The notes under the pieces: model-generated
Told to the model about the DNA's origin: nothing
The model's input: the letters and a program-made list of their open reading frames with translations, nothing else
Database searches by the model: none
Source: a virus
Lineage: Duplodnaviria; Heunggongvirae; Uroviricota; Caudoviricetes
IMG/VR virus record: IMGVR_UViG_3300037312_000757
Length of the DNA stretch: 64,000 nucleotides
Strand: one strand, 5' to 3'
Shown: positions 28,108 to 42,414 of the stretch, in pieces
How the letters are laid out: every line of letters begins with the position of its first letter
Numbering within the stretch: the stretch's first letter is position 1
Position numbers and translations under genes: made by a program

Positions 28108-28229
28108 CAGGATGGTATTTTTTACGTGCTCCCATTACACCACAGCGGGACCCTACCCCACTGCCGGGACTCGAACCCGGACCTTTCTTTTTTCCAGAAG
28201 AATAAAATAAATTTGCTGAAACCATCCAA
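28108..28229 (-). ncRNA. circularly permuted tRNA mimic with CAGCAA handle
   Basis: GGATGGTTTCAGCAA, then T arm, closed acceptor CAGTGGG/CCCGCTG, D arm, then ACCATCCTG. Confidence 0.85.
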
Positions 28230-28235
28230 GGGTTC

Positions 28236-28325
28236 TGGCAGTGGGAATGGGATTCGAACCCATGGGGCTTTTTAGGACCCGACGCCTTTCCAAGACGTTG
28301 CAATAGACCGCTCTGCCATCCCACT
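28236..28325 (-). tRNA. tRNA-Ser(GGA)
   Basis: Loop TTGGAAA, long variable arm, G73. Confidence 0.9.
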
Positions 28326-28360
28326 ATAAATTCAAATCACCAAGCCACGAAGAAAGGCGA

Positions 28361-28552
28361 TTACGATTGTGCTGCGAAACCTTCTTCACGTGCGAATGCC
28401 ACGACGCCACGGACTGCTTCGAGTGCGAACTCACCATGGAGTCGCTCCACGCGTTCTGCGGGGGTGGTCTCACGTCCAAGAGTCTCAGGGCGAGCCAGTA
28501 CGAGCGTATGCAACGGCAGTGCGGAAACGCGTGCAAATGTCAGCGTCGTCAT
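28361..28552 (-). CDS. hypothetical protein
   Basis: AGGAG RBS. Confidence 0.5.
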   Translation of the reverse strand: MTTLTFARVSALPLHTLVLARPETLGRETTPAERVERLHGEFALEAVRGVVAFAREEGFAAQS

Positions 28553-28595
28553 GATTGCTCTCCTTGAGAAAATGGTTAAAAGGTACTACGTTAAT

Positions 28596-28687
28596 TGGCG
28601 GTAGCGGAAGGATTTGAACCTTCGGGGCTTTTTAGGACCCGCTAGTTTTCGAGGCTAGTGCAATAAACCGGACTCTGCCACGCTACC
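28596..28687 (-). tRNA. tRNA-Ser(CGA)
   Basis: Loop CTCGAAA. Confidence 0.9.
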
Positions 28688-28694
28688 ATAAAAC

Positions 28695-28895
28695 TTACTT
28701 GGTGTCTTTCGATTGCTCTTCGCGCTGTGCGCTAATGAAAATGCAACCTTCAGCACCACATCCACAGACGATATGTCGTTCACGTACAATCTTGTCTGCG
28801 TCTTTGATTTCACCACGGTTACGAAGTGAATTGAAAACTTCCGTTGTATGGCGTGCTGCTGCCATATCTTTCTGCGATAAGCGTCTTCCGCTCAT
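28695..28895 (-). CDS. hypothetical protein (CGCG..GC)
   Basis: ORF between Ser tRNAs. Confidence 0.55.
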   Translation of the reverse strand: MSGRRLSQKDMAAARHTTEVFNSLRNRGEIKDADKIVRERHIVCGCGAEGCIFISAQREEQSKDTK

Positions 28896-28912
28896 ATCGT
28901 TCTCGTTATTAG

Positions 28913-29002
28913 TGGAGGAAGGTAAGGGATTCGAACCCTTGGGGCTTTTTAGGACCCGACTGTTTAGCAAACAGTTACAATAGACCGCTCTGCCAACCTT
29001 CC
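28913..29002 (-). tRNA. tRNA-Ser(GCT)
   Basis: Loop TTGCTAA. Confidence 0.9.
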
Positions 29003-29012
29003 ATTTAAAACT

Positions 29013-29108
29013 TGGTAGTCCCCCAGGGATTCGAACCCTGCCGTCGCAGCCCATCTAGCCGCTCTCCCGAGGATATAAATCTCAGCCGCTCAACCAGAGC
29101 TAAGGACC
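29013..29108 (-). tRNA. tRNA-Ile(TAT)-like with long variable arm
   Basis: GGTCCTT acceptor, A73, loop TTTATAT. Confidence 0.65.
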
Positions 29109-29119
29109 ACTGCAAAAAT

Positions 29120-29197
29120 TGGAGCTCCGAGCTAGATTCGAACTAGCGGTTTTACTGCTTTGCAGGCAGTTGCCTTGGACCTCTCGGCCATCGGAGC
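29120..29197 (-). tRNA. tRNA-Cys(GCA)
   Basis: Loop CTGCAAA. Confidence 0.9.
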
Positions 29198-29206
29198 GTT
29201 GAAAAC

Positions 29207-29282
29207 TGGAGCGGGTAACGGGGTTCGAACCCGTGACGTCTTGCTTGGCAAGCAAGTACTCTACCAACTGAGCTACACCCGC
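29207..29282 (-). tRNA. tRNA-Gly(GCC)
   Basis: Loop TTGCCAA, U73. Confidence 0.92.
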
Positions 29283-29293
29283 ATGGTGTATAA

Positions 29294-29356
29294 CTGGATG
29301 CACTTTAACGAGGTCAGATTAACGGTCTGGTGTTTGAAGTTGCTGTAGGCATCCAA
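29294..29356 (-). ncRNA. minimal CAGCAA-handle RNA
   Basis: GGATGCCTACAGCAA..GTGCATCCAG. Confidence 0.8.
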
Positions 29357-29362
29357 AACTGA

Positions 29363-29414
29363 CAGGAAGCACTTAGTCATGTAAGAAATGAGTAAGATTG
29401 CTGTAGGCTTCCTA
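29363..29414 (-). ncRNA. minimal CAGCAA-handle RNA
   Basis: GGAAGCCTACAGCAA..GTGCTTCCTG (compensatory change). Confidence 0.8.
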
Positions 29415-29426
29415 AAACTTGAATTC

Positions 29427-29681
29427 TTATAACAATCAGCACTAGGTTTGCAGTTTACCGCAGTGGAGGAATTAACTCACGGTGATCAAGCCGTTACTTC
29501 ATTCCATTCTCACGACCAAACTCAGGACCAAACAAGGAGGCGCGTCGGGGGCTCCCGAAACTCGTAAGCGGCTTAACTTCAGTGTGATACACTGTCCACA
29601 CATACCTACCCTTGCCCTCTGAGCGCTTTACCACTTGCACTGCAAAAACGGCCAGTTACTTCCTAACGCTGACTGCTATAA
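29427..29681 (-). ncRNA. ~255-nt structured RNA with 20-bp closing stem
   Basis: TTATAGCAGTCAGCGTTAGG pairs with CCTAGTGCTGATTGTTATAA; promoter TTGCAT-N16-TATCAT at 29687-29714. Confidence 0.7.
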
Positions 29682-29722
29682 AAACTATGATACACTTTGT
29701 TGCCATTTATGCAACAGAAAAC

Positions 29723-29814
29723 TGGCAGAGCTGCAAGGAATCGAACCCTATTGACTACCACCCACCGATTATTAAAGTCGCTGGTTTTGGAGACCAGTAG
29801 CGGGGAACAGCTCT
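29723..29814 (-). tRNA. tRNA-Trp(CCA) lacking D arm, expanded variable region
   Basis: AGAGCTG/CAGCTCT-G-CCA; loop CTCCAAA; only 10 nt between acceptor and anticodon stem. Confidence 0.75.
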
Positions 29815-29840
29815 GTTGAAAACTTGATACTACTAAAACT

Positions 29841-29917
29841 TGGTAGGGGCGGAGAGATTCGAACTCTCGACTTCCTGATTAAGAGTCAGGCACTCTGGCC
29901 AACTGAGTTACACCCCC
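29841..29917 (-). tRNA. tRNA-Lys(CTT)
   Basis: Loop CTCTTAA. Confidence 0.9.
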
Positions 29918-29924
29918 ATTGAAA

Positions 29925-30055
29925 TACCATTTGATGTGATCCCCATCACATCACCTGTTGAACACGATTCTGAAGCTACTTGCACATATAACGCTGAGTA
30001 GGCGTCACGTGCTTTTACTTACCGTGGGTGATCAGGTTAACCATATCAAATGGTA
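29925..30055 (-). ncRNA. ~130-nt stem-closed RNA
   Basis: TACCATTTGAT terminal inverted repeat. Confidence 0.55.
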
Positions 30056-30067
30056 CTTACGGAAACT

Positions 30068-30144
30068 TGGTGGGGGCACTGGGATTCGAACCCAAGCCTG
30101 ACGGATTAAAAGTCCGCTGTGCTAACCGCTAACACCATACCCCC
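30068..30144 (-). tRNA. tRNA-Lys(TTT)
   Basis: Loop CTTTTAA. Confidence 0.9.
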
Positions 30145-30150
30145 ATTGAC

Positions 30151-30225
30151 TGGTTGGGGCAGTGGGGATCGAACCCACGACCTTGAGATTAAGAGTCTCA
30201 TGCTCTACCGCTGAGCTATACCCCA
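30151..30225 (-). tRNA. tRNA-Lys(CTT)
   Basis: Loop CTCTTAA. Confidence 0.9.
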
Positions 30226-30245
30226 GTAAACTGGACTACAGAATC

Positions 30246-30380
30246 AGTAAGCTGGTACTTTCAATCAAGTACAGTGTACAGCTTACGACTCCCATGACTA
30301 CATTTTTGTCTGGGAGTCGTCGAACTTAATCTGCTACGACTCCCAGAAGTTTCGATGATTTTCGTTTCATCACAAACTCC
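30246..30380 (-). promoter_or_regulatory. leader-peptide RNA switch (MKRKSSKLLGVVAD, 30326-30370)
   Basis: AGGAG RBS; mutually exclusive 1:2, 2:3 and 3:4 helices. Confidence 0.65.
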
Positions 30381-30571
30381 TAAAGAGAAAATTAAATTAA
30401 AGTGTCCGAAAAATGTACACAAATTTCGGACAAAACCAACAACAAAGCCTGCATTTCCATCAGAGCACTTGCAAAAGCAAATGGTGATTCACGCAACTAG
30501 ACGTGATGGACTGGTTTAGCTCAAAGGCCAACCTAGGAGTATCAGGTCCCACCTATGGTTATTGGTAAACT

Positions 30572-30648
30572 TGGTTGCGCGAAGCAGGAGTCGAACCTGA
30601 TATCACCAGCTTATGAGACTGGTATGTAAACCGTTTCACTCTCGCGCG
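30572..30648 (-). tRNA. tRNA-Met(CAT), initiator-like C1:A72
   Basis: Loop CTCATAA. Confidence 0.8.
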
Positions 30649-30656
30649 AAACTTGT

Positions 30657-30737
30657 TGGTACCCCGCAAGAGATTCGAACTCTCACCCGAAGACCGGAAC
30701 CTAAATCCGGCGCGTCTACCAATTTCGCCAACGGGGC
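30657..30737 (-). tRNA. tRNA-Leu(TAG)
   Basis: Loop TTTAGGT. Confidence 0.9.
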
Positions 30738-30772
30738 ATCAATGCAGACCTACTAACGTCTGCACGAAATAC

Positions 30773-30850
30773 TGGTTGCGGAGAGATGGATTCGAACCAT
30801 CGACCTCCAGCTTATGAGGCTGGCGAGCTACCGGGCTGCTCTATCCCGCA
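30773..30850 (-). tRNA. tRNA-Met(CAT), fMet-like D arm
   Basis: AGAGCAGCCCGGTAGCTCG; loop CTCATAA. Confidence 0.85.
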
Positions 30851-30859
30851 ATTGAATTC

Positions 30860-30935
30860 TGGTTGTCAGTACTGGACTTGAACCAGTGACCTATCGCTTA
30901 TCAAGCGAGTGCTCTACCAACTGAGCTAACCGACA
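30860..30935 (-). tRNA. tRNA-Ile(GAT)
   Basis: Loop TTGATAA. Confidence 0.9.
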
Positions 30936-30939
30936 ATTG

Positions 30940-31168
30940 TCGCATCGCACTCGCTAAGGGCAACATTAAGCATCCACGCGCTAGAACAAGTTCCTGGCGT
31001 ATTCTCCGAATGTCATCCCTTACCAGCCATCATGCGCTGCAATGCATTTGCGCATAATGGACGAGATGCTACGTCCCTAACTGTAACCAAGTCTATTACC
31101 AACAAAACGTAGCAATACTGTTGGCACACATTGGCTCTGTTACAGCCCAGCAAGTTACCCTGCTAGTT
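30940..31168 (-). ncRNA. putative ~230-nt multi-hairpin RNA
   Basis: Promoter TTGCAA-N16-TACAAT (31175-31202), no ORF, several hairpins. Confidence 0.45.
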
Positions 31169-31210
31169 TGTTGCATTGTACAGCTTTTGCCATACTTTGC
31201 AAACACAACA

Positions 31211-31284
31211 TGGTTGTTCCAGAAAGAATCGAACTTTCGTTAATGGCTTATCAAGCCACCGTTCTACCATTGAACTATGGAACA
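31211..31284 (-). tRNA. tRNA-Ile(GAT)
   Basis: Loop TTGATAA. Confidence 0.88.
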
Positions 31285-31294
31285 ATTGAATTCT

Positions 31295-31369
31295 TGGTGG
31301 TTATAGATGGAGTCGAACCATCATTACCGGCTTATGAGACCAGTGTCCTAGCCATTGAACGATATAACC
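31295..31369 (-). tRNA. tRNA(CAT), elongator Met or Ile2
   Basis: Loop CTCATAA, G1:C72. Confidence 0.8.
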
Positions 31370-31373
31370 ATAA

Positions 31374-31429
31374 CTGGATGCACTTACGTTTTCACCGAAA
31401 GAAAGTATAAGATTGCTGTAGGCATCCAA
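31374..31429 (-). ncRNA. minimal CAGCAA-handle RNA
   Basis: GGATGCCTACAGCAA..GTGCATCCAG. Confidence 0.8.
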
Positions 31430-31449
31430 AACGGGTATTCGACATCAAA

Positions 31450-31557
31450 CTACCAAAAGTAGCGATACAACCAACCACTTTCTTGTTTATCAGTCATACA
31501 TTCGATTGGCGCTAATTCCCACACATCATTTTCAGTTCTGCGTCGAAATAACTGCAT
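31450..31557 (-). CDS. small protein (35 aa)
   Basis: AGGAG RBS; MQLFRRRTENDVWELAPIECMTDKQESGWLYRYFW. Confidence 0.5.
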   Translation of the reverse strand: MQLFRRRTENDVWELAPIECMTDKQESGWLYRYFW

Positions 31558-31575
31558 ACCAATCTCTCCTAAATG

Positions 31576-31650
31576 TGGCTCCAGAACCAGGGATCGAACC
31601 TGGGACCAACGCATTAACAGTGCGCTGCTCTACCGCTGAGCTATTCTGGA
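31576..31650 (-). tRNA. tRNA-Asn(GTT)
   Basis: Loop CTGTTAA. Confidence 0.92.
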
Positions 31651-31751
31651 ATTGAAACAGGACTGCATCGCGTACTCAGGCATTCGACACATTCAAATGC
31701 TTTCCTTTCCTTACTCTGCGGAATACCGCTAGAGATGATGCAGCAAAAACT

Positions 31752-31830
31752 TGGCTCCGCACACTGGGATCGAACCAGTCTAGCCACTGATTAACAGTCA
31801 GGTCCATGCACCTTGCTCGGATTCTGCGGA
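31752..31830 (-). tRNA. tRNA-Asn(GTT), atypical D arm
   Basis: Loop CTGTTAA. Confidence 0.82.
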
Positions 31831-31849
31831 ACTGTCATACAACAAAACT

Positions 31850-31925
31850 TGGTGCCTGGAGACGGAATCGAACCGCCGACACCCTGATCTTCAGTCAAGT
31901 GCTCTACCAACTGAGCTACCCAGGC
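31850..31925 (-). tRNA. tRNA-Phe(GAA), G37
   Basis: Loop CTGAAGA. Confidence 0.9.
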
Positions 31926-31996
31926 AAAGACCATAACGATGAGAACCTAACACACGCCTTAGCAGTGCGTACCCGCTCAACGTTACGATCAAAATT

Positions 31997-32071
31997 TGGC
32001 GATGCGTAGGGGATTCGAACCCCTGACTCCCGGCTAGACAGGCCAGTACTCTACCGCTGAGTTAACGCACC
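31997..32071 (-). tRNA. tRNA-Asp(GTC), U37
   Basis: Loop CTGTCTA. Confidence 0.88.
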
Positions 32072-32128
32072 ATGCGGGAGCAGCTTCTACTCCCCGCGCC
32101 CTGCTGTCGAAACAACAGGACTAAAACT

Positions 32129-32203
32129 TGGCGACCCTACGGAGAATCGAACTCCGTTCCCCAGATAGACAGTCTAGGATAATAACCAATATAAGATAGG
32201 GCC
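32129..32203 (-). tRNA. tRNA-Asp(GTC), U37
   Basis: Loop CTGTCTA. Confidence 0.85.
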
Positions 32204-32211
32204 GTGAAACT

Positions 32212-32299
32212 TGGTGAAGTGTGAAGGAATCGAACCTAATAACCAACCACCCCAGTATCATGGTAACGGGTTTACAATCCGCTCTGGGGAACACACTCC
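32212..32299 (-). tRNA. tRNA-Tyr(GTA) lacking D arm
   Basis: GGAGTGT/ACACTTC-A-CCA; loop TTGTAAA; GTTCCCCAGA replaces D arm. Confidence 0.75.
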
Positions 32300-32315
32300 A
32301 TTAAAACTTGTGCAA

Positions 32316-32468
32316 TTTGCTTTGCTCATCCGGGTGGGATCGAACCACCTTTTTATCCTCGAACATTTAGGCGCATTCGATAGCAACACGCTGGAATTAC
32401 GCTACCTTTAGCAGTCTTCTTCTGCGCTTCGGCCGAATAACCTGCGCAGTGCGGATGATAAAAGCAAA
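32316..32468 (-). ncRNA. ~155-nt RNA with T arm and extended acceptor-like stem, no CCA
   Basis: TCATCCG/CGGATGA; GGTGG-TTCGATC-CCACC. Confidence 0.65.
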
Positions 32469-32479
32469 CTACTGAAACT

Positions 32480-32563
32480 TGGTGGAGGATCCAGGATTCG
32501 AACCTGGGAACCCGAAGGAACGGATTTACAGTCCGCCGGCTTTAACCACTCACCCAACCCTCC
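32480..32563 (-). tRNA. tRNA-Tyr(GTA)
   Basis: Loop CTGTAAA, long variable arm. Confidence 0.92.
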
Positions 32564-32632
32564 ATTGCAACTTTACAACAAATGAAACACAAGTGCCTGC
32601 ATAGCTGTTATCCTCTTGTTTCATTTTACATC

Positions 32633-32722
32633 TGGCGGAAGCGGTGAGATTCGAACTCACGGACCTTTTTAGGGATCGACGGTTTTCAAGACCGCTGCCT
32701 TAACCCACTCAGCCACGCTTCC
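32633..32722 (-). tRNA. tRNA-Ser(TGA)
   Basis: Loop CTTGAAA. Confidence 0.92.
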
Positions 32723-32730
32723 ATTAATTC

Positions 32731-32804
32731 TGGCAGGAGCGCCAGGGTTCGAACCTGAACTACGTGAGTCAAAGTCACGGGTGCTACCATTACACTACGC
32801 TCCA
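32731..32804 (-). tRNA. tRNA-Gln(TTG)
   Basis: Loop CTTTGAC. Confidence 0.9.
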
Positions 32805-33067
32805 ACAGCGCTTACAAAGCTGATTACAACCACGGGTTTGAACCGCGATCAACTTAGTAAGCAACCTGCACAACGGTTCAGCACAAACATCATGCTGCTG
32901 CGTCATGCAGTTGTGTCTAGGCCTAATTGCCCTAGACTGACGGATTTTATACATTCGTTTGCAAACGAATCTTCATCCTCGCCGCCGCCCATTTAGCCAG
33001 TTTTTACGTGCGCGCCTGGGATCTCGTTTCCCGTCTACACGTTACTACAAAGAACATTGATGCCTTA

Positions 33068-33269: not shown

Positions 33270-33327
33270 TTCGTCCTCAAAAAGGAAGTTAGTTAAACAA
33301 CACGCCGTTCATTACAGCGTGCATCGT

Positions 33328-35518: not shown

Positions 35519-35631
35519 TTACTTGAATACAACAGTTTGTTCGACTGGATAACAACTACTGCCCAGCTCACCAACAAACTTACTACAAATCTATTTAGCA
35601 AATCAACAACGTTCGCTAACTTAGCTTCAAA

Positions 35632-35926
35632 CAGGATGGTTTGTGCATGCAGGTTTGAAAGTTATCGTTCAGTCTACATAGCAGGTTGCCTTATCTTCAC
35701 GTGCTCATGTAATTTTCATTACACAAGGGAAGCCTTATCAACAAGCGTACACCCACTGAACTATCACGTATTCTACGTGCCTATCTTGTTTGTTCTCGTC
35801 TACAAGCTGACGCCACATTCTTCGCTGCGGACGCTATCTAGCCTAGCATGTTTTACCAGTGCGCTTTCGCACACTGCACGCGTACTAGCACAATCATTTA
35901 GATTTGATATTGCTGTACCCATCCAA
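35632..35926 (-). ncRNA. ~295-nt CAGCAA-handle RNA
   Basis: GGATGGGTACAGCAA..AACCATCCTG enclosing several hairpins. Confidence 0.7.
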
Positions 35927-35963
35927 AACGCCAACTATCCAAAAGCCAGCGCTTCGAAACTAA

Positions 35964-36139
35964 CAGGATTGTGGTCTCCCTACACTCTTTACCGGGCCAG
36001 GATCTTCCCGGAGAGCTCGTTTCTACGAGAAATAGCTGCATCTCACACCGCAGGCACTCTTTCGAGTTCGACATCTAAGTCAGCTTACGGATTATGCAGC
36101 ACGCCATAGTTGTAAAGTATGGTTGCTGTAACAATCCTA
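35964..36139 (-). ncRNA. ~175-nt CAGCAA-handle RNA
   Basis: GGATTGTTACAGCAA..CACAATCCTG; starts just after promoter 36148-36175. Confidence 0.75.
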
Positions 36140-36147
36140 AGACTGCA

Positions 36148-36370: not shown

Positions 36371-38185
36371 ATGGCTAATGTAAAAAACTTTGGCTTGGAA
36401 GGCGTAGCTTCCTCAGTTCAACTGGGTAAGGGCGGCGCTACTCTGCAAGGTTCAGCTTCAAGCGTGGCGGTGAAGACAGCTGATGGTTCAGCTCTCGTAA
36501 ACCTGCAGGCGGCTGATCCTGTTGCAGCACAAGACGTAGTCACAAAGGGTGTTTTCGACGCTCTGAACGGCGGTACTGTTCAATTGGGTAATCCACAAGA
36601 CGGCACATTGAACGATGGCGCTGTGCAGTTGACAACTTCAACAACAGTCACTACCGCAGTTGACAAGCTGAACGAGATCCTCGGTAAGCTGGTTCCAACC
36701 GCTCCAGCCAACTTCCCTGGCGGTCAAACACTGTCACTGTCAGGCGCAGGCACAGCTCTGCTGGCTAGCGGTTCAGTTGCTGACAACACAGGCGGTGGCA
36801 CGCTTCCAGTTACAGCAGGTAGTTCAGTCACACGTGTGACAGCAGCAACAGTTTCATCAACAACCATTGGTGACAACGGTTCAACAGGCTTCGTTGGTCC
36901 AGGTGACAGTGGCACAGTTCAAGCAGTGGTTAACGGCGCAGTCGTTGACTCACAGGCAATGAGTGGTGGTGTTGCTAAGAGCACAGGTGTTCTGCGTATC
37001 AGCAATGATACAGCGTACCCAGCAGCCACACCAGGTTTCTGGTACAGCTTCCGCGCAAGCATCAGCGGTGCTTCAGCCACACAAGGCTGGAACCGTATTG
37101 CACTGAATGACACAGCATCAGGTGCAACAGCAACAAACGATGTCTACTTCGTTCGTGACAACTTGACAGCTAACCCAGTAGTTTCATCGGGCACAGTTGT
37201 TCAAGGTACAGCTGGCACACTTGCTTATTCATCAAGCGTTCCACACTATAACACAGGCGCAACACTGACAGTTGGCTTCACAGCGACAAACATCGCAGGT
37301 GAAACATACTCATCAGGTAACATCCTGTCAGTAGCAGGCTCAAACGGTATTCTGTCAACTGTTGGTTATGCTGCCGGTTCCGGTGGTTTGTCAAGCCCAG
37401 TTGCTCGCCAAACACTAAGCTTCACAGCATCAGGTCTGAGCATTCCAGTTAGCGGCACTAACGTATTCGCATCAGGTCAGATCACAGCAACAGCAACAAA
37501 CCCAAATGGTTCAGGCAACGCAACATTCGGTCCAAACATCCTGGTGATGAATGGTACAGCTTCAAGCAAACTGTATGAAATGAATGTTCCAGTTACAGTC
37601 GCAGTGAACGGTGGCCCATCCGGCAACTCAACACGTGTGACAATGAGCAACGGTGACAATCCAAGCGACGACAAGTCTTCACTGACTACCGGCGACTGGA
37701 ATTCATCATCAGCTTTGCAAGTATGGGATGCAACAGTGGTTGCAGGTGTTCTGAAGAACGACTTGACAGACTACAGCACTTATCTGCCAGCAGGTCCAAA
37801 CCTGACAACACAAAACGCAACACAGTACGTGACATTCATGTTCCGCCGTACAGCCGTGTCCAAGTTTGACATTGCAGTAACAGGTACATATGCTGGTATG
37901 TGGATTAAGGCAGTTGGTCTGACCGAACAGTACACAGCTTCAGCAAATGGTTGGTACTCAATGTCAGCATCATATGCTGGTTCAGGTTTCCCAGGCGACC
38001 AGGCAGGTGCTAACGGTTCACTGGGTTGCGCATTGGGCGGTACAGCAAGTGGCAGTGGTTCATTCACAGCCACACTGGGCACACTGAGCTCAACAAACGC
38101 GACAAACAACATCATCATGGTACGTTTCAAGCTGACAGCAGGCCAGTCAATCACTGCCCTGAGCTTTGTACCAGCTACACACTAA
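36371..38185 (+). CDS. probable virion structural protein (604 aa, G/S/T-rich)
   Basis: Beta-rich composition, GATAAATA upstream, strong AGGAG RBS. Confidence 0.7.
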   Translation: MANVKNFGLEGVASSVQLGKGGATLQGSASSVAVKTADGSALVNLQAADPVAAQDVVTKGVFDALNGGTVQLGNPQDGTLNDGAVQLTTSTTVTTAVDKLNEILGKLVPTAPANFPGGQTLSLSGAGTALLASGSVADNTGGGTLPVTAGSSVTRVTAATVSSTTIGDNGSTGFVGPGDSGTVQAVVNGAVVDSQAMSGGVAKSTGVLRISNDTAYPAATPGFWYSFRASISGASATQGWNRIALNDTASGATATNDVYFVRDNLTANPVVSSGTVVQGTAGTLAYSSSVPHYNTGATLTVGFTATNIAGETYSSGNILSVAGSNGILSTVGYAAGSGGLSSPVARQTLSFTASGLSIPVSGTNVFASGQITATATNPNGSGNATFGPNILVMNGTASSKLYEMNVPVTVAVNGGPSGNSTRVTMSNGDNPSDDKSSLTTGDWNSSSALQVWDATVVAGVLKNDLTDYSTYLPAGPNLTTQNATQYVTFMFRRTAVSKFDIAVTGTYAGMWIKAVGLTEQYTASANGWYSMSASYAGSGFPGDQAGANGSLGCALGGTASGSGSFTATLGTLSSTNATNNIIMVRFKLTAGQSITALSFVPATH

Positions 38186-38199
38186 TCGGGAGATTTTAA

Positions 38200-39222
38200 A
38201 TGGCTATTTCTGACTCAAGCAAAGTCGACCTGATGTGGAAGAAGCTGGTTTACGGCGTTTCCAAGACAGATACATCATCAGCAAAGAGCGGTTCAAATGA
38301 AACAGTGTCATCACCACTGCCAGTTTACGCTAACAGCATTTGGGCACAAGCAGGCAGCATTCCAGCAACTCCACCAGCTTCAACAACATCAGTTGTTAAG
38401 CTGCTGACAGGTGCTAATCGTGTTGCAGCCACAGAAGATACAACAGCAACACTGAACGCAACATGGAAGACAGGCCAAACAAACTGGATTCCAGCGTCAT
38501 TCGGTGCAAACTACACCGTTAAGGTGTATGTTGGCGATCCACAGACAACAGGCGTTCAGATCTTCCCAGACACAAGCGGTACCGAATACACATTCGACTA
38601 CAATGCTGGTGTTCTGAACTTCCCAAATAGCTTGCCAGCTAACATTGCAAACGGCATCTACGTCGTCGGTTACCAATACATTGGTACACTGGGTCTGACA
38701 GGTACAGGTGCTGGTGCAAAGAGTGCAGTAGTCGCTGACATCACAGCTCGTAACGCAATCACAGGTCAAGCAGTTGGTGACATTGTGTTCGTTACCGATG
38801 CTTCAGGCATCCCTACTGACGCTAACCCAGGTCAGTATGCAGTGTACATGTGGACAGGTTCCGCTTGGACTGTGATTGCAACACAAGACTCAGGCGAAGC
38901 AGACGACAAGGTTAACTCAGTTGCTTTGACATCAGCTTCAACTGGCACAATTGCTCTGAGCACAGCTCGCGCTGGTGCTACAGTGACATCAGTTCAAATC
39001 AACGTAACAACAGCATTTGACGGTGCGTTCGCAATCTCAGTTGGTACATCAGCAAACAATGCATTGCTGGTTGCATCATCAGAGAACGACATGCAAACAG
39101 CTGGTGTTTACCAATTGAACATGTCCCTGATGGTTTCTCCAACAGCAGCAACAGCAGTCAATATCTACGTGACTGGAACAGCTACGGTTGGCGCAGCAAA
39201 CGTAACGATCACTTATGCTTGA
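38200..39222 (+). CDS. probable virion structural protein (340 aa)
   Basis: Co-transcribed; FDYNAGVLNF motif; similar composition. Confidence 0.7.
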   Translation: MAISDSSKVDLMWKKLVYGVSKTDTSSAKSGSNETVSSPLPVYANSIWAQAGSIPATPPASTTSVVKLLTGANRVAATEDTTATLNATWKTGQTNWIPASFGANYTVKVYVGDPQTTGVQIFPDTSGTEYTFDYNAGVLNFPNSLPANIANGIYVVGYQYIGTLGLTGTGAGAKSAVVADITARNAITGQAVGDIVFVTDASGIPTDANPGQYAVYMWTGSAWTVIATQDSGEADDKVNSVALTSASTGTIALSTARAGATVTSVQINVTTAFDGAFAISVGTSANNALLVASSENDMQTAGVYQLNMSLMVSPTAATAVNIYVTGTATVGAANVTITYA

Positions 39223-39239
39223 TAGGTAAGTGAGTTGGC

Positions 39240-39270
39240 AAAAGGCCCCACAATGTGGGGCCTTTTCTTT
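39240..39270. terminator. bidirectional terminator
   Basis: aaaaggcccca-caatg-tggggcctttt. Confidence 0.8.
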
Positions 39271-39284
39271 GGGCTTGTGAAAGC

Positions 39285-40073
39285 TTAGATCTTGATTTCG
39301 TGCGAGCCGAACGAGATGCGCGAAACCCAGTCGATGAACTTACGGGACACGAAGATCACCTTGTCCACCAGCACAGTCAGCACGCGCGAGAAGAGCGTCG
39401 ACAGAATCGTGATCGGCCATTCGAACACAGCAGAGGCCAGGATCGTCTTGCCTTGCAACGTGCGCGGCGGAAACAGTTCGGCCATCTTCTTCGCGATCAT
39501 GGCTTGCATGTCTTCGATCATCTCGTATTGACGCAGCGTCCACGTATCGAAACTAGTGTTCACCTTGTATGCGTAACCGAAGATCGTTTGCTTGTTGCTC
39601 GTTGCGAGGTCAAGCTGCAGAACCTGGCGTACGAAGTCGTCCGTGAGATCAGTGTCAGCGAATTGCACCTTGCGTTGATCGTTCATCTGTTTCAGAATGT
39701 TTGCACGGTAGTTGGCAAATTTTTCCGAGTCCATGAGATACGGCAAAACGAGGTTTCGATAACGTGTCTTCACGTGCATACAGTAAAGCACCCAGTTCGC
39801 GAACGAAACGACCACGCCGATCAGCAAGTAGACAACAATTGGCAACAGCACAGCATGCGCAATTGCACTTGGCTGTCGAATCAGATCGAAGACCGGCACA
39901 TGAGCGAACACGCCGATCGAAACGAACATCGCGACCATGGTGACGAACGAAACGCCGTAATGCTCGTTCGAATAAACCGCGATCGATACGACCAGTAACA
40001 CGAGCGCCGCCGCAACAGCAATCCACTCAATCAGAGTGAAAGCCACCGCTCCGGCCATCAGAGCTGCAAACAT
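39285..40073 (-). CDS. multi-pass membrane protein
   Basis: Several hydrophobic segments. Confidence 0.7.
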   Translation of the reverse strand: MFAALMAGAVAFTLIEWIAVAAALVLLVVSIAVYSNEHYGVSFVTMVAMFVSIGVFAHVPVFDLIRQPSAIAHAVLLPIVVYLLIGVVVSFANWVLYCMHVKTRYRNLVLPYLMDSEKFANYRANILKQMNDQRKVQFADTDLTDDFVRQVLQLDLATSNKQTIFGYAYKVNTSFDTWTLRQYEMIEDMQAMIAKKMAELFPPRTLQGKTILASAVFEWPITILSTLFSRVLTVLVDKVIFVSRKFIDWVSRISFGSHEIKI

Positions 40074-40299
40074 GTAAGGAACCTCTTGAAATTGTTATGA
40101 AAGGAAACAGCGCTGCCATTCTGCAATGGCACGCCATTTCATTCAAGCGTTCGTTACCATCTTAAAACTGAAGCGCCAAATGCCTAGACGCCCCACATGA
40201 ATCTAGTCCATGCAGGGCGTTTTCGGCAGGTAAACAACTTCAGGAGGTGAAGTGTTAAGTGTTAGATTACACCCGTCTCAGGATGCAGTCAAGCACTTT

Positions 40300-41130
40300 T
40301 TAGAACAGGATCAGCGAAGTGCCGCATTCACTGCAGAACTTGGCTGTCGCCTTGTTCGTTCTACCGCAAGTTTCGCACTTAGGCTTGGCCTTCACCGTCA
40401 CAGGTGCTTCGACCTTCTTCCCTTCTGGGCTTTCACCCAACAGCTTGAGCGCGATGACGTGTTTCGTGCTCTCTACAGGGAACCAAGCCGCAGTCTTAAA
40501 TGATTGCGAGCTGTGGGCGCCAGGTACGGTGATACCAACTTCATTTTGCACCGCAGCTTGAGCGGTGTATGCGGTGTTCACTGCATTTGTTGCCACTGAC
40601 GCAGACGCAACTGATGCGGTTGCGTTAAGAGTGGCGCCACGCAAGATACCCTTTGTAACGGGTTCTCCAGCAGTGGTTGAAGTGGTGAAGGTAACGTCGT
40701 TACCGTAGAAAGTACCATCATACAGACCTGGTGACTTGTAGACCCAGCCATTGTTGTTCCAAGTGTTGACTTGTGGGTAAAGATATTCGAACTGATATTC
40801 GACACGGATGAACCCGTCATCAACTTTGGAACCACGGTGATTTTCAATCTCGGCAGTGCGTTCGATGAACTTAAACTTGTTACCTTCCTTCAGGTTCCCG
40901 TTCTTGATGAAACGCTCGAACTCAATCTCGCTATGAGCTTCGATTACGAGTGCGGTGCCTTCTGTTGCATCAGTACCATCAACATGAACCTTGACCTGAA
41001 CACGACGTGAGTCCATGTTTTTGATCAGAATGCTGTAGTGGGAGCCAAATGGGATGTAGCAAGTGTCCTTTACTTCGCGCAGAACTTTGCCATTCGCCTT
41101 GACGGCGACGATGAGATTTTGATTGAACAT
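40300..41130 (-). CDS. hypothetical protein with C-terminal zinc ribbon
   Basis: CETCG..KFCSECGT. Confidence 0.75.
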   Translation of the reverse strand: MFNQNLIVAVKANGKVLREVKDTCYIPFGSHYSILIKNMDSRRVQVKVHVDGTDATEGTALVIEAHSEIEFERFIKNGNLKEGNKFKFIERTAEIENHRGSKVDDGFIRVEYQFEYLYPQVNTWNNNGWVYKSPGLYDGTFYGNDVTFTTSTTAGEPVTKGILRGATLNATASVASASVATNAVNTAYTAQAAVQNEVGITVPGAHSSQSFKTAAWFPVESTKHVIALKLLGESPEGKKVEAPVTVKAKPKCETCGRTNKATAKFCSECGTSLILF

Positions 41131-41134
41131 GGTG

Positions 41135-41262
41135 TGGTTTCCTTATTGTACGGCCTACGGAGTAAAGGCCTTATGTTTTAACTCCGTTTCAGGTGTTGAG
41201 TTGTTCGTCTCAACGGTTTCAACTATAGGCTATTGCCAACCTATAGTCAAAATCTATTTAGT
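41135..41262 (-). promoter_or_regulatory. structured 5' leader with putative pseudoknot
   Basis: ACTAAATA, two hairpins, GGAGT/ACTCC pairing into loop of GGCCT/AGGCC. Confidence 0.5.
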
Positions 41263-41263
41263 A

Positions 41264-41737
41264 TCAAGCATCGACAATCGATTCAAGCATGACATCGAGG
41301 CTTTCATACATCTTGACACCGAAGCGATTACACACGATGTCCACGTTACCCTTGCGCCAAAAGCCTTCTGGGCAGCATACGTGCAGTTTTTCTGGATAAC
41401 GAGCAGCGACGATACCGAGCTCGAGCAGCGTAATGGGTGATTTTGTACCTGGTGCAAAGTACATGATGACAATGTCCGCTTTATCGATGTGATCGAGCTC
41501 CCAGTTCACCTGTGTGTTGAAGTTGGGCTCGTCAATCTCTTGACGCCATGATGAGTCCCAGTCCGAACGACGTGGATTGTAGATTACACTGGCGAAACGG
41601 TCGAGCTTGCCGATGGCATATGTTTGCCAGTCTTCGGACGCACCCATTTCGATCGTCCCCGCCAGAAACACGGATGGCGCTTCCAAGAGCGCTGGCTTGT
41701 TGAAAAAGCACGGTGGGTATTTTACGATTGCAGTCAT
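41264..41737 (-). CDS. nucleoside 2-deoxyribosyltransferase-like protein
   Basis: VFLAGTIEMG..DWQ, NPRR, QVNWEL, SPITLLELG. Confidence 0.8.
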   Translation of the reverse strand: MTAIVKYPPCFFNKPALLEAPSVFLAGTIEMGASEDWQTYAIGKLDRFASVIYNPRRSDWDSSWRQEIDEPNFNTQVNWELDHIDKADIVIMYFAPGTKSPITLLELGIVAARYPEKLHVCCPEGFWRKGNVDIVCNRFGVKMYESLDVMLESIVDA

Positions 41738-41840
41738 TTTATTTTTCTTGTTAGCAGACTGTGGAACGACTAAGGGCTCCCGTAAGGGAGCCCGTCGCCG
41801 ATGGTAACAACCTACAGGAGGAACTACATGGTAAAACCAA

Positions 41841-41973
41841 CAGGATCCCTTTACATGTCTAGCGCGTATACCAATTTCGCCACAATCCACTTTTAAGGGT
41901 GGATTAGAAGGGTTCGAACCTTCACGTCTTTCGACACCAGATTTCCGATAGTTTGTTTGCTGTACGGATCCTA
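41841..41973 (-). ncRNA. circularly permuted Leu-type tRNA mimic with CAGCAA handle
   Basis: GGATCCGTACAGCAA, variable arm + T arm, closed acceptor, GGCGAAATTGGTATACGC D arm, GGGATCCTG. Confidence 0.85.
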
Positions 41974-42014
41974 AAATCTACCACCAGTAATACTTCGCTG
42001 GTGGGAAAAACTAA

Positions 42015-42071
42015 CTGGATGCACACTTGGTTTCTTAGCAAAAGAAGAGTGTGGTTGCTGTAGGCATCCAA
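42015..42071 (-). ncRNA. minimal CAGCAA-handle RNA
   Basis: GGATGCCTACAGCAA..GTGCATCCAG. Confidence 0.8.
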
Positions 42072-42129
42072 AACCTTAAATTCTTCCAGTGTTCGTGTTT
42101 AACACAAAGAGAACACTGGCAACCTTTGC

Positions 42130-42225
42130 GTTAAGTCCCAGCTCGTTGAGCGCTGAAACACTAGGCCTTTTAACTCTCACTCGACACTAGCTTCTAACAT
42201 CTAGTGCAGACCTAACTACCTTAAC
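42130..42225 (-). ncRNA. ~95-nt stem-closed RNA
   Basis: GTTAAG/CTTAAC and TAGGTCT/AGGCCTA; promoter TTGACG-N17-TAGAAT at 42229-42257. Confidence 0.5.
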
Positions 42226-42281
42226 TCTATTCTACTGCTATGGCAACCTAACGTCAAGCATTTTGTTGCCACTTCATTTAA

Positions 42282-42414
42282 CAGGATGGGACTACTTTAA
42301 GGCCGCTGCTCTGCCAACTGAGCTAACCATGCTTACCAATTTCTTAGTAATCATAGTGCAGGACTCGAACCTGCGACCCGCGGCTTGGATTTAGTGATTG
42401 CTGAATCCATCCTA
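42282..42414 (-). ncRNA. circularly permuted Lys-type tRNA mimic with CAGCAA handle
   Basis: GGATGGATTCAGCAA, GCCGC + T arm, acceptor closed by GAAA hairpin, D arm + GCGGC, CCCATCCTG. Confidence 0.85.

What the first reader, a model, noticed from the sequence alone, without database searches (positions are those of the whole stretch)
28108..42414. Three independently derived circularly permuted tRNA mimics
In each RNA the order is T arm, then acceptor stem sealed by a loop, then D arm. The donors differ: a Leu-type body with variable arm (41841), a Lys-type body (42282) and a third type (28108). The acceptors are closed (GAAA-capped extension in 42282) and the anticodons are degenerate, so they look like elbow mimics rather than precursors. 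Established analogues are YrlA Y RNAs and the spliced permuted tRNA genes of Cyanidioschyzon and some archaea.
Basis: partly seen in the sequence, partly recalled or inferred. Interest (0 to 1): 0.85.

Follow-up and report, generated by a model that had tools for sequence, protein, structure and literature searches.

The report
Phage Y-RNA-like permuted tRNA mimics
Three small RNAs in a 524-kb phage's tRNA array are tRNA look-alikes with a sealed acceptor end and no anticodon, and they belong to a large, apparently uncatalogued family of phage RNAs that share a 'CAGCAA handle' and travel with a divergent Ro60-like RNA-binding protein, so they are best read as phage Y RNAs.

Summary
On the minus strand at 28106-28232, 41839-41976 and 42280-42417 lie three RNAs ordered T arm, closed acceptor hairpin, D arm. 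No anticodon loop is present.

This is the architecture of YrlA, the bacterial tRNA-like Y RNA. Rfam's YrlA model matches only the tRNA-like core, below threshold.

All three share a terminal 7-bp helix, a 5'-side bulge NUNCAGCAA and a 3' G(UU). Seven more RNAs in the window carry the same handle with other cargo. At least 263 distinct handle RNAs occur in other phages.

The gene most often next to them is a ~470-aa DUF2828/DUF7788 protein. Its predicted fold matches Ro60 over its whole length. This phage encodes one about 100 kb away. In cultured phages of E. coli, Cronobacter, Mycobacterium, Listeria, Staphylococcus, Campylobacter and Bacillus, handle RNAs flank that gene.

Best reading: Y-RNA-like ligands of a phage Ro60-like protein, with the tRNA-like body acting as adaptor or decoy. 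Binding and expression are untested.

'Independently derived' and 'Lys-type' are not supported. Precursors of mature tRNAs are unlikely.

Novelty: a new variant of the Ro60/Y RNA system.

The parts
42280..42417 (-). Element C, a handle RNA with permuted tRNA-like cargo. Handle 5' strand AGGAUGG at 42413-42407; bulge AUUCAGCAA at 42406-42398; tRNA-like core at 42382-42304; handle 3' strand CCAUCCU at 42289-42283; GUU at 42282-42280.
41839..41976 (-). Element B, a handle RNA with a class-II (Leu-like) permuted tRNA body. Handle AGGAUCC at 41972-41966; bulge GUACAGCAA at 41965-41957; variable-arm hairpin; T arm; 8-bp acceptor hairpin; D arm; handle 3' strand GGAUCCU at 41848-41842; GUU at 41841-41839.
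28106..28232 (-). Element A, a handle RNA with a permuted tRNA body. Handle UGGAUGG at 28228-28222; bulge UUUCAGCAA at 28221-28213; T arm at 28180-28164; 9-bp acceptor hairpin; D arm; handle 3' strand CCAUCCU at 28115-28109; GUU at 28108-28106. It lies between tRNA-Ser(GGA) and tRNA-Glu.
42012..42075 (-). Short handle RNA with a hairpin cargo of 32 nt, lying between C and B.
35962..36142 (-). Handle RNA with a 151-nt structured cargo that has no tRNA arms (handle AGGAUUG/CAAUCCU).
35630..35929 (-). Handle RNA with a 270-nt structured cargo, directly upstream of tRNA-Thr(UGU).
31371..31433 (-). Short handle RNA. The cargo is a hairpin with a 7-nt loop. It lies directly upstream of tRNA-Met.
29291..29418 (-). 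Two adjacent short handle RNAs (29360-29418 and 29291-29360). Their cargo resembles anticodon stem-loops, with 7-nt loops UUCUUAC and CCGUUAA. They lie upstream of tRNA-Gly.
24884..25001 (-). CCA-ending tRNA-like RNA in which the anticodon loop is replaced by the same handle in inverted order (3' strand, loop GACA, 5' strand, then GUUCAGCAA). It is the circular permutation of elements A-C.
   Evidence: Two equivalents occur next to the Ro-like gene of Cronobacter phage S13.

Best explanation
The three RNAs are YrlA-type, Y-RNA-like non-coding RNAs of a huge phage. Each has two modules.

Module 1 is a conserved 'handle'. The 5' and 3' ends pair in a 7-bp helix. On the 5' strand this is followed at once by a single-stranded NUNCAGCAA bulge. 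On the 3' strand an A-rich linker precedes the helix and a G (usually GUU) follows it.

Module 2 is a tRNA body whose acceptor stem is sealed into a hairpin and whose anticodon loop is replaced by the handle.

I infer that the handle is the docking site for the phage's Ro60-like ring protein. This is a DUF2828/DUF7788 protein with a vWA domain, 467 aa, at G000:C1:281171-282571, outside the window. The layout parallels the terminal stem plus (G)NCGAA bulge of canonical Y RNAs, which binds Ro60.

I also infer that the L-shaped tRNA elbow is an effector module. It would either tether the Ro-like ring to proteins that recognise tRNA, or act as a decoy for them. Candidates are modification and processing enzymes, the phage's own Rnl1/kinase/CCA repair set, and host tRNA-directed nucleases. 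Sibling RNAs on the same handle present other cargo: anticodon-stem-loop look-alikes, unpermuted tRNA bodies, and larger folds.

The RNAs are probably released from the tRNA-array transcript by the same processing that frees their tRNA neighbours. They start 1-10 nt after an upstream CCA and end a few nt before the next tRNA.

Shown: the anatomy, family membership, helix covariation, co-occurrence and synteny with the Ro-like gene, and the Ro60-like predicted fold.
Inferred: binding, expression, and the biological role.
For: 1. Anatomy. All three elements have the T arm / closed acceptor / D arm order with canonical T and D loops. ARAGORN accepts them once un-permuted. Rfam YrlA matches the core of C at 33.9 bits, and a sister RNA, L078:539-648, at 49.9 bits.

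2. Shared handle. Nine RNAs plus one inverted copy occur in the genome, all on the tRNA strand and all within 382-400 kb.

3. Family. A search pattern that specified only the 5' side found more than 118 IMG/VR loci. In 112 of 127 matches the exact 6-nt complement lay within 400 nt, against about 9% expected by chance, and it was followed by UGUU although that was not part of the pattern. In all, 263 distinct handle RNAs were collected.

4. Covariation. On 73 short members the handle helix is 99% paired, and 4 of 7 pairs change on both sides (for example GC 39, CG 24, AU 8, UA 2). The covariation score is 0.41 against 0.11 in shuffles, with 0 of 500 shuffles as high, and at most 0.10 when the partners are slid.

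5. Partner gene. The top ORF cluster near the RNAs, in 67 of 118 loci, is DUF2828+DUF7788.

6. Reciprocal test. Of 79 loci picked by the protein, 66 hold at least one handle RNA within 10 kb. There are 93 on the gene's strand against 1 opposite, and 0 in reversed-sequence controls. Twenty-six end no more than 100 nt upstream of the gene.

7. Presence in the genomes. G000 has the gene. So do both of the >=90%-complete contigs tested where the gene was not in the flank.

8. Fold. The AlphaFold2 model has pLDDT 79. The 13 best PDB hits are all Ro60/TROVE proteins: phage phiLo, Xenopus, D. radiodurans and human, at E 8e-10 to 1e-6 and TM 0.35-0.62 (0.5 or more for 11 of the 13), over about 500 alignment columns. 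Swiss-Prot hits 1-5 are Ro60. The MIDAS residues are invariant. One Atlas cluster mixes TROVE and DUF2828 annotations.

9. Cultured phages. 710 records carry the protein, and some annotate it 'Ro-like RNA binding protein'. Handle RNAs flank it in phages of seven host genera. The helix sequence is clade-specific, while CAGCAA and the 3' G are constant.

10. Literature. Phage Ro60 proteins with adjacent Y-like RNAs are known (PMC4201824; PMC12135203). In Bas63, gp130 is Ro60-like, counters the Ppl defence, and its authors guessed that some downstream 'tRNAs' are Y RNAs (bioRxiv 10.1101/2024.10.10.617714).
Against: - No binding, expression or end-mapping data exist.
- In G000 the Ro-like gene is about 100 kb from the RNAs and has no handle RNA beside it.
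- Pfam TROVE does not match anything in the genome. The canonical Ro60-binding motif GNCGAAN0-1G is absent from the handle.
- YrlA scores are below Rfam's gathering score. B is not matched at all.
- Thirteen of 79 protein-ascertained loci, and the Ochrobactrum phage, showed no handle within the fetched flanks.
- Part of the covariation set was selected for pairing, which inflates 'percent paired'.
- The handle's position right after a CCA, and its G-UU tail, would also fit a plain processing signal.
Confidence: 0.7

Rival explanations
1. Free-standing decoys. The RNAs act without the Ro-like protein, as competitive inhibitors or baits for host tRNA-targeting defence nucleases or tRNA-binding sensors. 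On this reading the handle only stabilises the ends.
For: - The cargo repertoire is made of tRNA parts: elbows without anticodons, anticodon-stem-loop look-alikes with loops such as CUUUUAA, CUUCUAA and CUUGUAA, and bodies without acceptor ends.
- The RNAs sit in a 52-tRNA array of the kind thought to offset host attacks on tRNA (PMC7824862).
Against: - The bulge NUNCAGCAA and the 3' G stay invariant while the helix sequence drifts between phage clades. An end clamp would not need that.
- The strand-specific linkage to the Ro-like gene is tight, and it also holds outside tRNA arrays: Listeria, Staphylococcus, Campylobacter and Mycobacterium phages.
- The handle also occurs as an internal hairpin inside CCA-ending tRNAs, where it closes no ends.
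Confidence: 0.12
2. Processing or stability cassettes. The handle is a cis-acting signal, an acceptor-stem look-alike cut by RNase P and RNase Z or by RNase E, that punctuates the tRNA-array transcript. The cargo would be evolutionary filler.
For: - Family members typically begin 1-2 nt after an upstream tRNA's CCA with UUUU. They end in a 7-bp helix plus G plus UU, a few nt before the next tRNA.
- That layout resembles a 7-bp acceptor stem with a discriminator and a U-rich trailer. This comparison rests on my own knowledge of RNase Z determinants.
Against: - Cargo classes are conserved across many phages: the ~140-nt and ~215-235-nt classes, the permuted bodies and the normal-order bodies.
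- Many members lie beside the Ro-like gene with no tRNA nearby.
- The inverted handles have no free ends.
Confidence: 0.1
3. True permuted tRNA genes. The transcripts are circularised at the handle and reopened at the acceptor loop to give functional, chargeable tRNAs, as in Cyanidioschyzon.
For: - The 3' half lies upstream of the 5' half.
- The phage encodes Rnl1- and Rnl2-type RNA ligases and a CCA-adding enzyme.
- M. smegmatis YrlA is cut by RNase P and receives CCA in vivo (PMC4201824).
Against: - Joining the ends could not rebuild a 7-nt anticodon loop. The junction carries 12-22 nt per side, including the conserved CAGCAA.
- The acceptor helices run on without a break for 8-14 bp, with no discriminator-CCA.
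- The same handle carries non-tRNA cargo.
- There is no RtcB.
- The array already supplies anticodons for 19 of the 20 amino acids; none for Ala or Trp were called within the window.
Confidence: 0.03
4. Decayed tRNA pseudogenes or rearrangement debris in a recombining tRNA array.
For: tRNA arrays duplicate and shuffle, and several odd tRNA-like sequences lie nearby.
Against: - Stems, T and D loops, and the handle pairing are all intact.
- The same architecture recurs in unrelated phages with compensatory changes.
Confidence: 0.02

Closest known systems
YrlA (Rfam RF02553), the tRNA-like Y RNA of bacteria and some phages that partners Ro60/Rsr (Chen et al. 2014, PMC4201824)
   Same: - The 5' and 3' ends pair in a stem.
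- A conserved bulge motif sits on the 5' strand next to that stem.
- The distal module is a tRNA mimic ordered T arm, closed acceptor-like stem-loop, D arm, with the 'anticodon stem' leading to the protein-binding stem.
- The RNA is encoded in the same genomes as, and in relatives next to, a Ro60-fold ring-plus-vWA protein.
   Different: - The handle bulge is NUNCAGCAA, not GNCGAAN0-1G.
- Only model positions 23-85 align, and scores of 33.9, 17.5 and none fall under the gathering score of 69.
- The partner is the DUF2828/DUF7788 branch, which Pfam's TROVE model does not detect.
- The same handle carries many other cargo types.
- The genes are embedded in a tRNA array.
Thermus phage phiLo Ro60 with Yrl1/Yrl2 (PMC12135203), and Bas63 gp130 (bioRxiv 10.1101/2024.10.10.617714)
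   Same: - Both are phage-encoded Ro60-fold proteins.
- In phiLo, Y-like RNAs with a terminal stem plus a bulge motif lie upstream of the gene.
- The Bas63 protein is a Felixounavirus relative of the protein found here. It lies upstream of the tRNA array and counters a host defence (Ppl).
   Different: - phiLo uses a TROVE-type protein and a CGAA motif.
- For Bas63 the RNAs were only guessed at, not identified.
- Here the RNAs are defined, and they show the CAGCAA signature.
Dictyostelium Class I RNAs (Rfam RF01414; Kjellin et al. 2021, PMC7919456)
   Same: [quoted passage not shown]
- It is followed at once by the single-stranded motif CCUUACAGCAA, whose invariant positions U, C, C, A, A coincide with the handle's.
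- A variable interior and a 3' CUGU tail follow.
- A short phage member scores 30.2 bits on RF01414.
   Different: - They are eukaryotic, made from their own DUSE promoters, and 42-65 nt long. Their known binder is an RRM protein.
- The score is below the gathering score of 41.5.
- I could not test whether dictyostelids encode a DUF2828/DUF7788 protein.
- The likeness may be convergent or due to chance.
Permuted tRNA genes of Cyanidioschyzon merolae and split or permuted archaeal tRNAs
   Same: The 3' half of a tRNA is encoded upstream of the 5' half, with the acceptor strands joined by a linker.
   Different: - There is no bulge-helix-bulge junction.
- No anticodon loop can be recovered.
- The acceptor has no processing sites or CCA.
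- The setting is bacterial-virus.
- The same flanks enclose non-tRNA cargo.

Membership tests
YrlA (RF02553) | tRNA-like domain ordered T arm, acceptor-like stem-loop, D arm, closed by a stem | tested here: met
   The YrlA consensus structure aligns to C over positions 23-85. A and B show the same order by direct parsing.
YrlA (RF02553) | Score at or above Rfam's gathering score (69 bits) | tested here: not met
   C scores 33.9 bits, A scores 17.5 bits, and B has no hit.
YrlA (RF02553) | Ro60-binding stem with the GNCGAAN0-1G motif on the 5' strand | tested here: not met
   The handle carries NUNCAGCAA instead. The flanks do not fit the model (mismatch marks). The motif definition is from PMC4201824.
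YrlA (RF02553) | Encoded with a Ro60 (TROVE) orthologue | tested here: inconclusive
   Pfam TROVE is absent from the genome. A Ro60-fold DUF2828/DUF7788 protein is present and lies adjacent to handle RNAs in relatives.
YrlA (RF02553) | Bound by Ro60, and modified by tRNA enzymes (TruB, DusA) | not testable with these tools
   Needs biochemistry.
CAGCAA-handle RNAs (family proposed here; no Rfam entry found) | A 7-bp helix joining the two ends, followed directly on the 5' strand by NNNCAGCAA and on the 3' strand by G | tested here: met
   A, B and C all have it. Covariation is shown.
CAGCAA-handle RNAs (family proposed here; no Rfam entry found) | Genome also encodes a DUF2828/DUF7788 Ro60-like protein | tested here: met
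   for G000. for relatives.
Permuted tRNA genes (Cyanidioschyzon type) | The junction of the ends rebuilds an anticodon loop at a bulge-helix-bulge splice motif | tested here: not met
   The junction is a 7-bp helix plus a large asymmetric loop holding CAGCAA. No 7-nt anticodon loop can be derived from it.
Permuted tRNA genes (Cyanidioschyzon type) | The acceptor linker can be removed to leave a 7-bp stem with a discriminator and CCA (encoded or added) | tested here: inconclusive
   The helices run unbroken for 8, 9 and 14 bp with small loops and no CCA. RNase P cleavage, as seen for M. smegmatis YrlA, cannot be excluded in silico.
Permuted tRNA genes (Cyanidioschyzon type) | RtcB-type ligase or splicing endonuclease available | tested here: not met
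   No RtcB in the phage. The endonuclease was not searched for. Rnl1 and Rnl2 are present.
Dictyostelium Class I RNA (RF01414) | Terminal stem plus the 11-nt CCUUACAGCAA motif, at or above the gathering score of 41.5 bits | tested here: not met
   14.9 bits on B. 30.2 bits on the short member L064:40-94. The signature is shared, but the scores are below threshold.

The most novel reading that the evidence does not exclude
The terminal stem plus NNNCAGCAA bulge plus 3' G(U) would be the universal recognition element of the whole DUF2828/DUF7788 branch of Ro60-like proteins. That branch is found in hundreds of phages, in giant viruses and in eukaryotes. The handle would make a programmable RNP in which swappable cargo directs one ring protein to different targets. 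The cargo includes tRNA elbows, anticodon stem-loops, whole CCA-ending tRNAs and large folds. On this reading the long-orphan Class I RNAs of dictyostelid amoebae, which share the same stem, the CCUUACAGCAA motif and a CUGU tail, would be the eukaryotic Y RNAs of this branch.
Probability: 0.2. Interest if true: 0.92.

Novelty: new variant of a known kind. Interest (0 to 1): 0.72.

Why it matters
Ro60/Y RNA particles are conserved from bacteria to humans, but their logic is only partly understood. This finding offers four things.

1. A defined RNA signature for a large, unannotated branch of Ro60-like proteins. That branch is in 710 cultured phage genomes, including Felix O1-like phages of E. 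coli K-12 and Listeria, Staphylococcus and Mycobacterium phages, and in at least 575 viral contigs.

2. A possible explanation for many unannotated gaps in phage tRNA arrays, and for at least the two oversized or 'tRNA-OTHER' calls examined (Cronobacter phage S13).

3. A modular design of one handle with many kinds of tRNA-derived cargo. This makes the idea that Y RNAs act as adaptors directly testable.

4. A link to a reported counter-defence phenotype (Bas63 gp130 against Ppl), so genetics is available.

If the Dictyostelium link holds, it would also give a function-bearing partner to an RNA class that has been unexplained for some twenty years.

Tried and rejected
- Pfam TROVE and RtcB were searched in the whole phage. 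Both are absent. The TROVE result nearly led me to drop the Ro60 idea, until ORF clustering and fold search found the DUF2828/DUF7788 protein.
- Rfam, all 8 searches. No family covers the handle. There were only sub-threshold YrlA core hits, a mascRNA-like hit on A's T arm, and sub-threshold Dictyostelium Class I hits.
- A profile of the Ro-like family against PDB sequences gave only E 0.18 to TROVE proteins. The fold search was needed.
- Minimum-free-energy z-scores are not informative for A and B.
- A generic 'CAGCAA plus any 7-nt complement' scan is swamped by chance hits: 81 and 63 in the genome, against about 20 per strand in shuffles. Only the WGGAWSS subset is real.
- The neighbourhood of the G000 Ro-like gene holds no handle RNA, no tRNA and no informative domain.
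- Ideas considered and dropped for lack of matching features: self-cleaving ribozymes, CRISPR repeat mimics, ToxI-like antitoxins, CsrA sponges, MITE-like inverted repeats, and two neighbouring intron-bearing tRNAs mimicking a permuted gene.
- I could not find out whether Dictyostelium encodes a DUF2828 protein. AlphaFold DB rows hide the organisms, and the Atlas is mostly viral.
- Burroughs & Aravind 2016 (PMC5062991) and Avesson et al. 2011 are not held in the library.

Full report
CONTEXT. The window is the minus strand of positions 360517-424516 of a 523,836-bp IMG/VR virus record. The record has direct terminal repeats and is rated complete. It is therefore a huge phage. ARAGORN finds 52 tRNA genes in the window, all on the minus strand. 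Rfam confirms 50 of them.

THE OBSERVATION. The three elements lie on the minus strand at 28106-28232 (A), 41839-41976 (B) and 42280-42417 (C). Read as RNA, each runs in this order:
- a 5' helix strand;
- a bulge ending in CAGCAA;
- a linker;
- the 3' strand of an anticodon-type stem;
- a variable region (a GUC-GAAA-GAC hairpin in B and a longer hairpin in A);
- a canonical T arm with loop UUCGAGU or UUCGAAC;
- an acceptor helix closed into a hairpin (9 bp in A, 8 bp in B, and 13 of 14 positions paired with a GAAA cap in C);
- two nucleotides at positions 8-9;
- a D arm with A14 and G18-G19;
- the 5' strand of the anticodon-type stem;
- an A-rich linker;
- the 3' helix strand and GUU.

None has an anticodon loop. 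When I joined the halves in the normal order with a placeholder loop, ARAGORN called all three as tRNAs.

Rfam's YrlA model has the consensus structure stem / T arm / stem-loop / D arm / stem. It matches the core of C at 33.9 bits, with E 2.7e-6 against the whole genome, and matches A weakly at 17.5 bits. Both scores are far below the gathering score of 69, and only model positions 23-85 fit. B is missed by that model. Its D arm is identical at 20 of 21 positions to the phage's own tRNA-Leu(UAG).

'Leu-type with variable arm' is reasonable for B. 'Lys-type' for C is not supported: its best matches among the phage's own tRNAs are Arg, Ile, Phe and Pro.

THE SHARED HANDLE. All three begin (U)UUU-[A/U]GGAUSS-NUNCAGCAA and end SSAUCCU-GUU, and the two SS dinucleotides are complementary. 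The same frame encloses six more RNAs in the window:
- four short hairpins;
- one RNA with a 151-nt cargo;
- one RNA with a 270-nt cargo.

It also occurs once in inverted order inside a CCA-ending tRNA at 24884-25001. There the order is 3' strand, loop GACA, 5' strand, then GUUCAGCAA. All copies are on the tRNA strand, within genome coordinates 382-400 kb.

THE FAMILY ELSEWHERE. In 112 of 127 matches the exact complement of the 6-nt helix lay within 400 nt. About 9% would be expected by chance. The complement was followed by U-G-U-U at 95, 100, 93 and 89%, although these bases were not in the pattern. Members usually start one or two bases after the CCA of an upstream tRNA.

With a looser definition I collected 263 distinct handle RNAs. 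On 73 short members aligned by MAFFT:
- the handle helix is 99% paired;
- four of its seven pairs change on both sides (for example GC 39, CG 24, AU 8, UA 2);
- the whole-structure covariation score is 0.41, against 0.11 in shuffles (0 of 500 as high) and at most 0.10 when the partners are slid.

That set was partly selected for pairing. The result from the 5'-side-only search is therefore the cleaner test.

By a rough regular-expression classification of the 263 RNAs, the cargo classes are:
- about 20 permuted T..D bodies like A-C;
- about 20 bodies in the normal D-anticodon-T order but without an acceptor end;
- 26 with only a T arm;
- 29 short hairpins that look like anticodon stem-loops, with 5 bp plus 7-nt loops such as CUUUUAA, CUUGUAA and CUUCUAA;
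- 62 other short hairpins;
- about 106 longer folds, including conserved classes of ~140 nt and ~215-235 nt.

A 15-sequence alignment of permuted members shows the same architecture with different stems. L097 carries a Leu-type body like B. The three RNAs are therefore members of an inherited, widespread class, not three local inventions.

THE PARTNER. I clustered all ORFs of the 118 handle loci. The top cluster, present in 67 loci, is a ~472-aa protein with Pfam DUF2828 and DUF7788 plus a weak vWA signal. Next come a dual-specificity-phosphatase-like protein (44 loci), a calcineurin-like phosphoesterase (41 loci) and an AAA_33 kinase (31 loci).

G000 encodes one such protein: 467 aa, at G000:C1:281171-282571, about 100 kb from the array. 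An AlphaFold2 model built on a 33-sequence alignment has pLDDT 79 and pTM 0.73. It matches Ro60 structures over essentially its whole length. The 13 best PDB hits are Thermus phage phiLo Ro60, Xenopus Ro, D. radiodurans Rsr and human Ro60, with E 8e-10 to 1e-6 and TM 0.35-0.62 (0.5 or more for 11 of the 13). After them come only vWA domains. Swiss-Prot hits 1-5 are Ro60 proteins, and hit 6 is a telomerase TROVE protein. The MIDAS residues are invariant. One Atlas cluster mixes TROVE, DUF7788 and DUF2828 annotations.

For the reciprocal test I ascertained loci by the protein. At least 575 viral contigs encode a relative. Of the 79 fetched with 10-kb flanks, 66 contain at least one handle RNA. 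There are 93 copies on the gene's strand against 1 opposite, and none in reversed-sequence controls. Twenty-six end within 100 nt upstream of the gene, and a ~215-235-nt class lies downstream of it. Of five large handle-bearing contigs whose fetched flank lacked the gene, three have it elsewhere, including both contigs that are at least 90% complete.

CULTURED PHAGES. tblastn finds the protein in 710 cultured phage records. Annotations include 'Ro-like RNA binding protein' (mycobacteriophages), 'putative Ro sixty-related protein', 'RNA-binding protein' and 'vWFA protein'. Handle RNAs flank the gene in these phages:
- E. coli phage momo (Felixounavirus), four copies, one with a permuted tRNA body;
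- Cronobacter phage S13;
- Mycobacterium phage Netyap, three copies just downstream;
- Listeria phage cka8, three copies just upstream;
- Staphylococcus phage S-CoN_Ph16;
- Campylobacter phage CP8;
- Bacillus phage vB_BcoS-136, eight copies in its tRNA array, with both permuted and normal-order bodies.

The Vibrio phage D480 locus also held one handle RNA, near its tRNAs and about 4 kb upstream of the gene. Between clades the helix sequence changes completely (AGGAUSS, AGACCRW, UGGACGC, AAGACAC and others). The adjoining NNNCAGCAA and the G after the 3' strand do not change. That is the pattern expected of a protein-recognition site, not of a mere clamp.

In phage S13 the records' 121-nt 'tRNA-Ser' and 113-nt 'tRNA-OTHER' are CCA-ending tRNAs with the inverted handle in the anticodon position, like 24884-25001 here. 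The handle therefore works as a module whether or not it closes the RNA's ends.

LITERATURE.
- Chen et al. 2014 (PMC4201824) defined YrlA. [quoted passage not shown] It is modified by TruB and DusA. In M. smegmatis it is cut by RNase P and extended with CCA. It is found next to Ro60 in more than 250 bacteria and phages.
- Thermus phage phiLo Ro60 binds two upstream Y-like RNAs that have a stem and a CGAA bulge, and it assembles with host PNPase (PMC12135203).
- A comparative study of jumbo phages notes ROT/TROVE proteins in a small subset of them, as part of RNA-repair provisioning (PMC7824862).
- The PhageMaP preprint reports that Bas63 gp130 is structurally Ro60-like, sits just upstream of the tRNA genes and counters the Ppl defence. 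Its authors speculate that some annotated tRNAs are Y RNAs.
- I found no paper or Rfam family that defines the CAGCAA handle or its modular cargo.

MECHANISM. The best reading is that A-C are Y-RNA-like ligands of the phage's Ro60-like protein. The handle docks on the ring. The tRNA elbow is the effector module, acting either as a tether to proteins that recognise tRNA or as a decoy for them. Sibling RNAs present other tRNA parts.

The phage also carries Rnl1- and Rnl2-type ligases, an AAA_33 kinase and a CCA-adding enzyme, but no RtcB. In relatives, end-healing enzymes cluster with the Ro-like gene. This points to a role in tRNA surveillance or repair, or in countering host attacks on tRNA. 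Binding, expression and role are all inferences.

RIVALS.
- Free-standing decoys. This leaves unexplained why the bulge is invariant and why the gene linkage is so tight.
- Cis-acting processing cassettes. Conserved cargo classes, members far from any tRNA, and internal inverted handles argue against this.
- True permuted tRNA genes. No anticodon loop can be rebuilt, the acceptor helices are unbroken, and there is no RtcB.
- Pseudogene debris. The intact, covarying structure argues against this.

A SIDE LEAD. Rfam's Dictyostelium Class I RNA model gave sub-threshold hits: 14.9 bits on B, and 30.2 bits on a short member against a gathering score of 41.5. Class I RNAs have a 6-bp terminal stem with compensatory changes. 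Next to it is the single-stranded 11-nt motif CCUUACAGCAA, in which U3, C6, C9, A10 and A11 are near-invariant. They also have a variable interior and a transcribed 3' CUGU (PMC7919456). This is the handle signature. DUF7788 proteins exist in eukaryotes, for example an AlphaFold DB hit named 'Plant/T31B5-30 protein', and in giant viruses. I could not test whether dictyostelids have one, so this remains a lead and not a finding.

VERDICT. The feature is real. It is a new variant of the Ro60/Y RNA system. The tRNA-mimic module is of the known YrlA kind. The recognition handle, the protein branch and the swappable cargo appear to be undescribed.

Noticed in passing
window 24884-25001 (-): A CCA-ending tRNA-like RNA whose anticodon loop is replaced by the handle in inverted order (UUUCCU-GACA-AGGAAAC-GUUCAGCAA). 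Two equivalents in Cronobacter phage S13 are annotated as a 121-nt tRNA-Ser and a 113-nt 'tRNA-OTHER' (L217:7890-8132).
   Followed up: partly
window 24358-24475 (-): A 118-nt match to Rfam tRNA (42.4 bits) that ARAGORN does not call. It has an acceptor stem with ACCA, normal D and T arms, and about 45 extra nt in the anticodon/variable region. It has no CAGCAA motif.
   Followed up: no
window 29726-29815 (-) and 32215-32300 (-): Two tRNA-like RNAs with 9-bp terminal stems and T arms. They give weak tRNA-Sec hits (27 and 24 bits; gathering score 47). They are not called as tRNAs and do not carry the handle.
   Followed up: no
window 35537-36109 (+), ORF of 190 aa: This ORF, with a weak DUF7729 hit at E 4e-4, lies antisense to the two large handle RNAs (35630-35929 and 35962-36142). 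It is probably not a gene.
   Followed up: no
window 42478-42505 (-): The sequence CAGGGAUCCUGUCGUACAGCGG looks like a small inverted handle hairpin followed by a degenerate GUACAGCGG. It lies in an ORF-free stretch (42430-42940) upstream of element C that has promoter-like sites at 42739-42711 and 42919-42891.
   Followed up: no
window 41264-41890 (-), ORF of 208 aa: This is a nucleoside 2-deoxyribosyltransferase-like gene. The Pfam domain starts at residue 72 and the listed GTG start overlaps element B, so the true start is probably further downstream.
   Followed up: no
related loci L016-L133 (representatives L038:5728-6216, L099:3363-3962, L080:12500-12964): A dual-specificity-phosphatase-like protein, a calcineurin-like phosphoesterase and an AAA_33 kinase recur near the Ro-like gene and handle RNAs, in 44, 41 and 31 of 118 loci. 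They may form an RNA-end-healing set.
   Followed up: partly
related loci, downstream of the Ro-like gene (e.g. L144:2941-3190, L153:11566-11817): A conserved class of handle RNAs with ~215-235-nt cargo lies downstream of the Ro-like gene (most of the 27 downstream copies found, in up to 27 of the 79 loci). Another conserved ~125-146-nt class occurs, for example at L019 and L037. Both folds are unknown and have no Rfam match.
   Followed up: no
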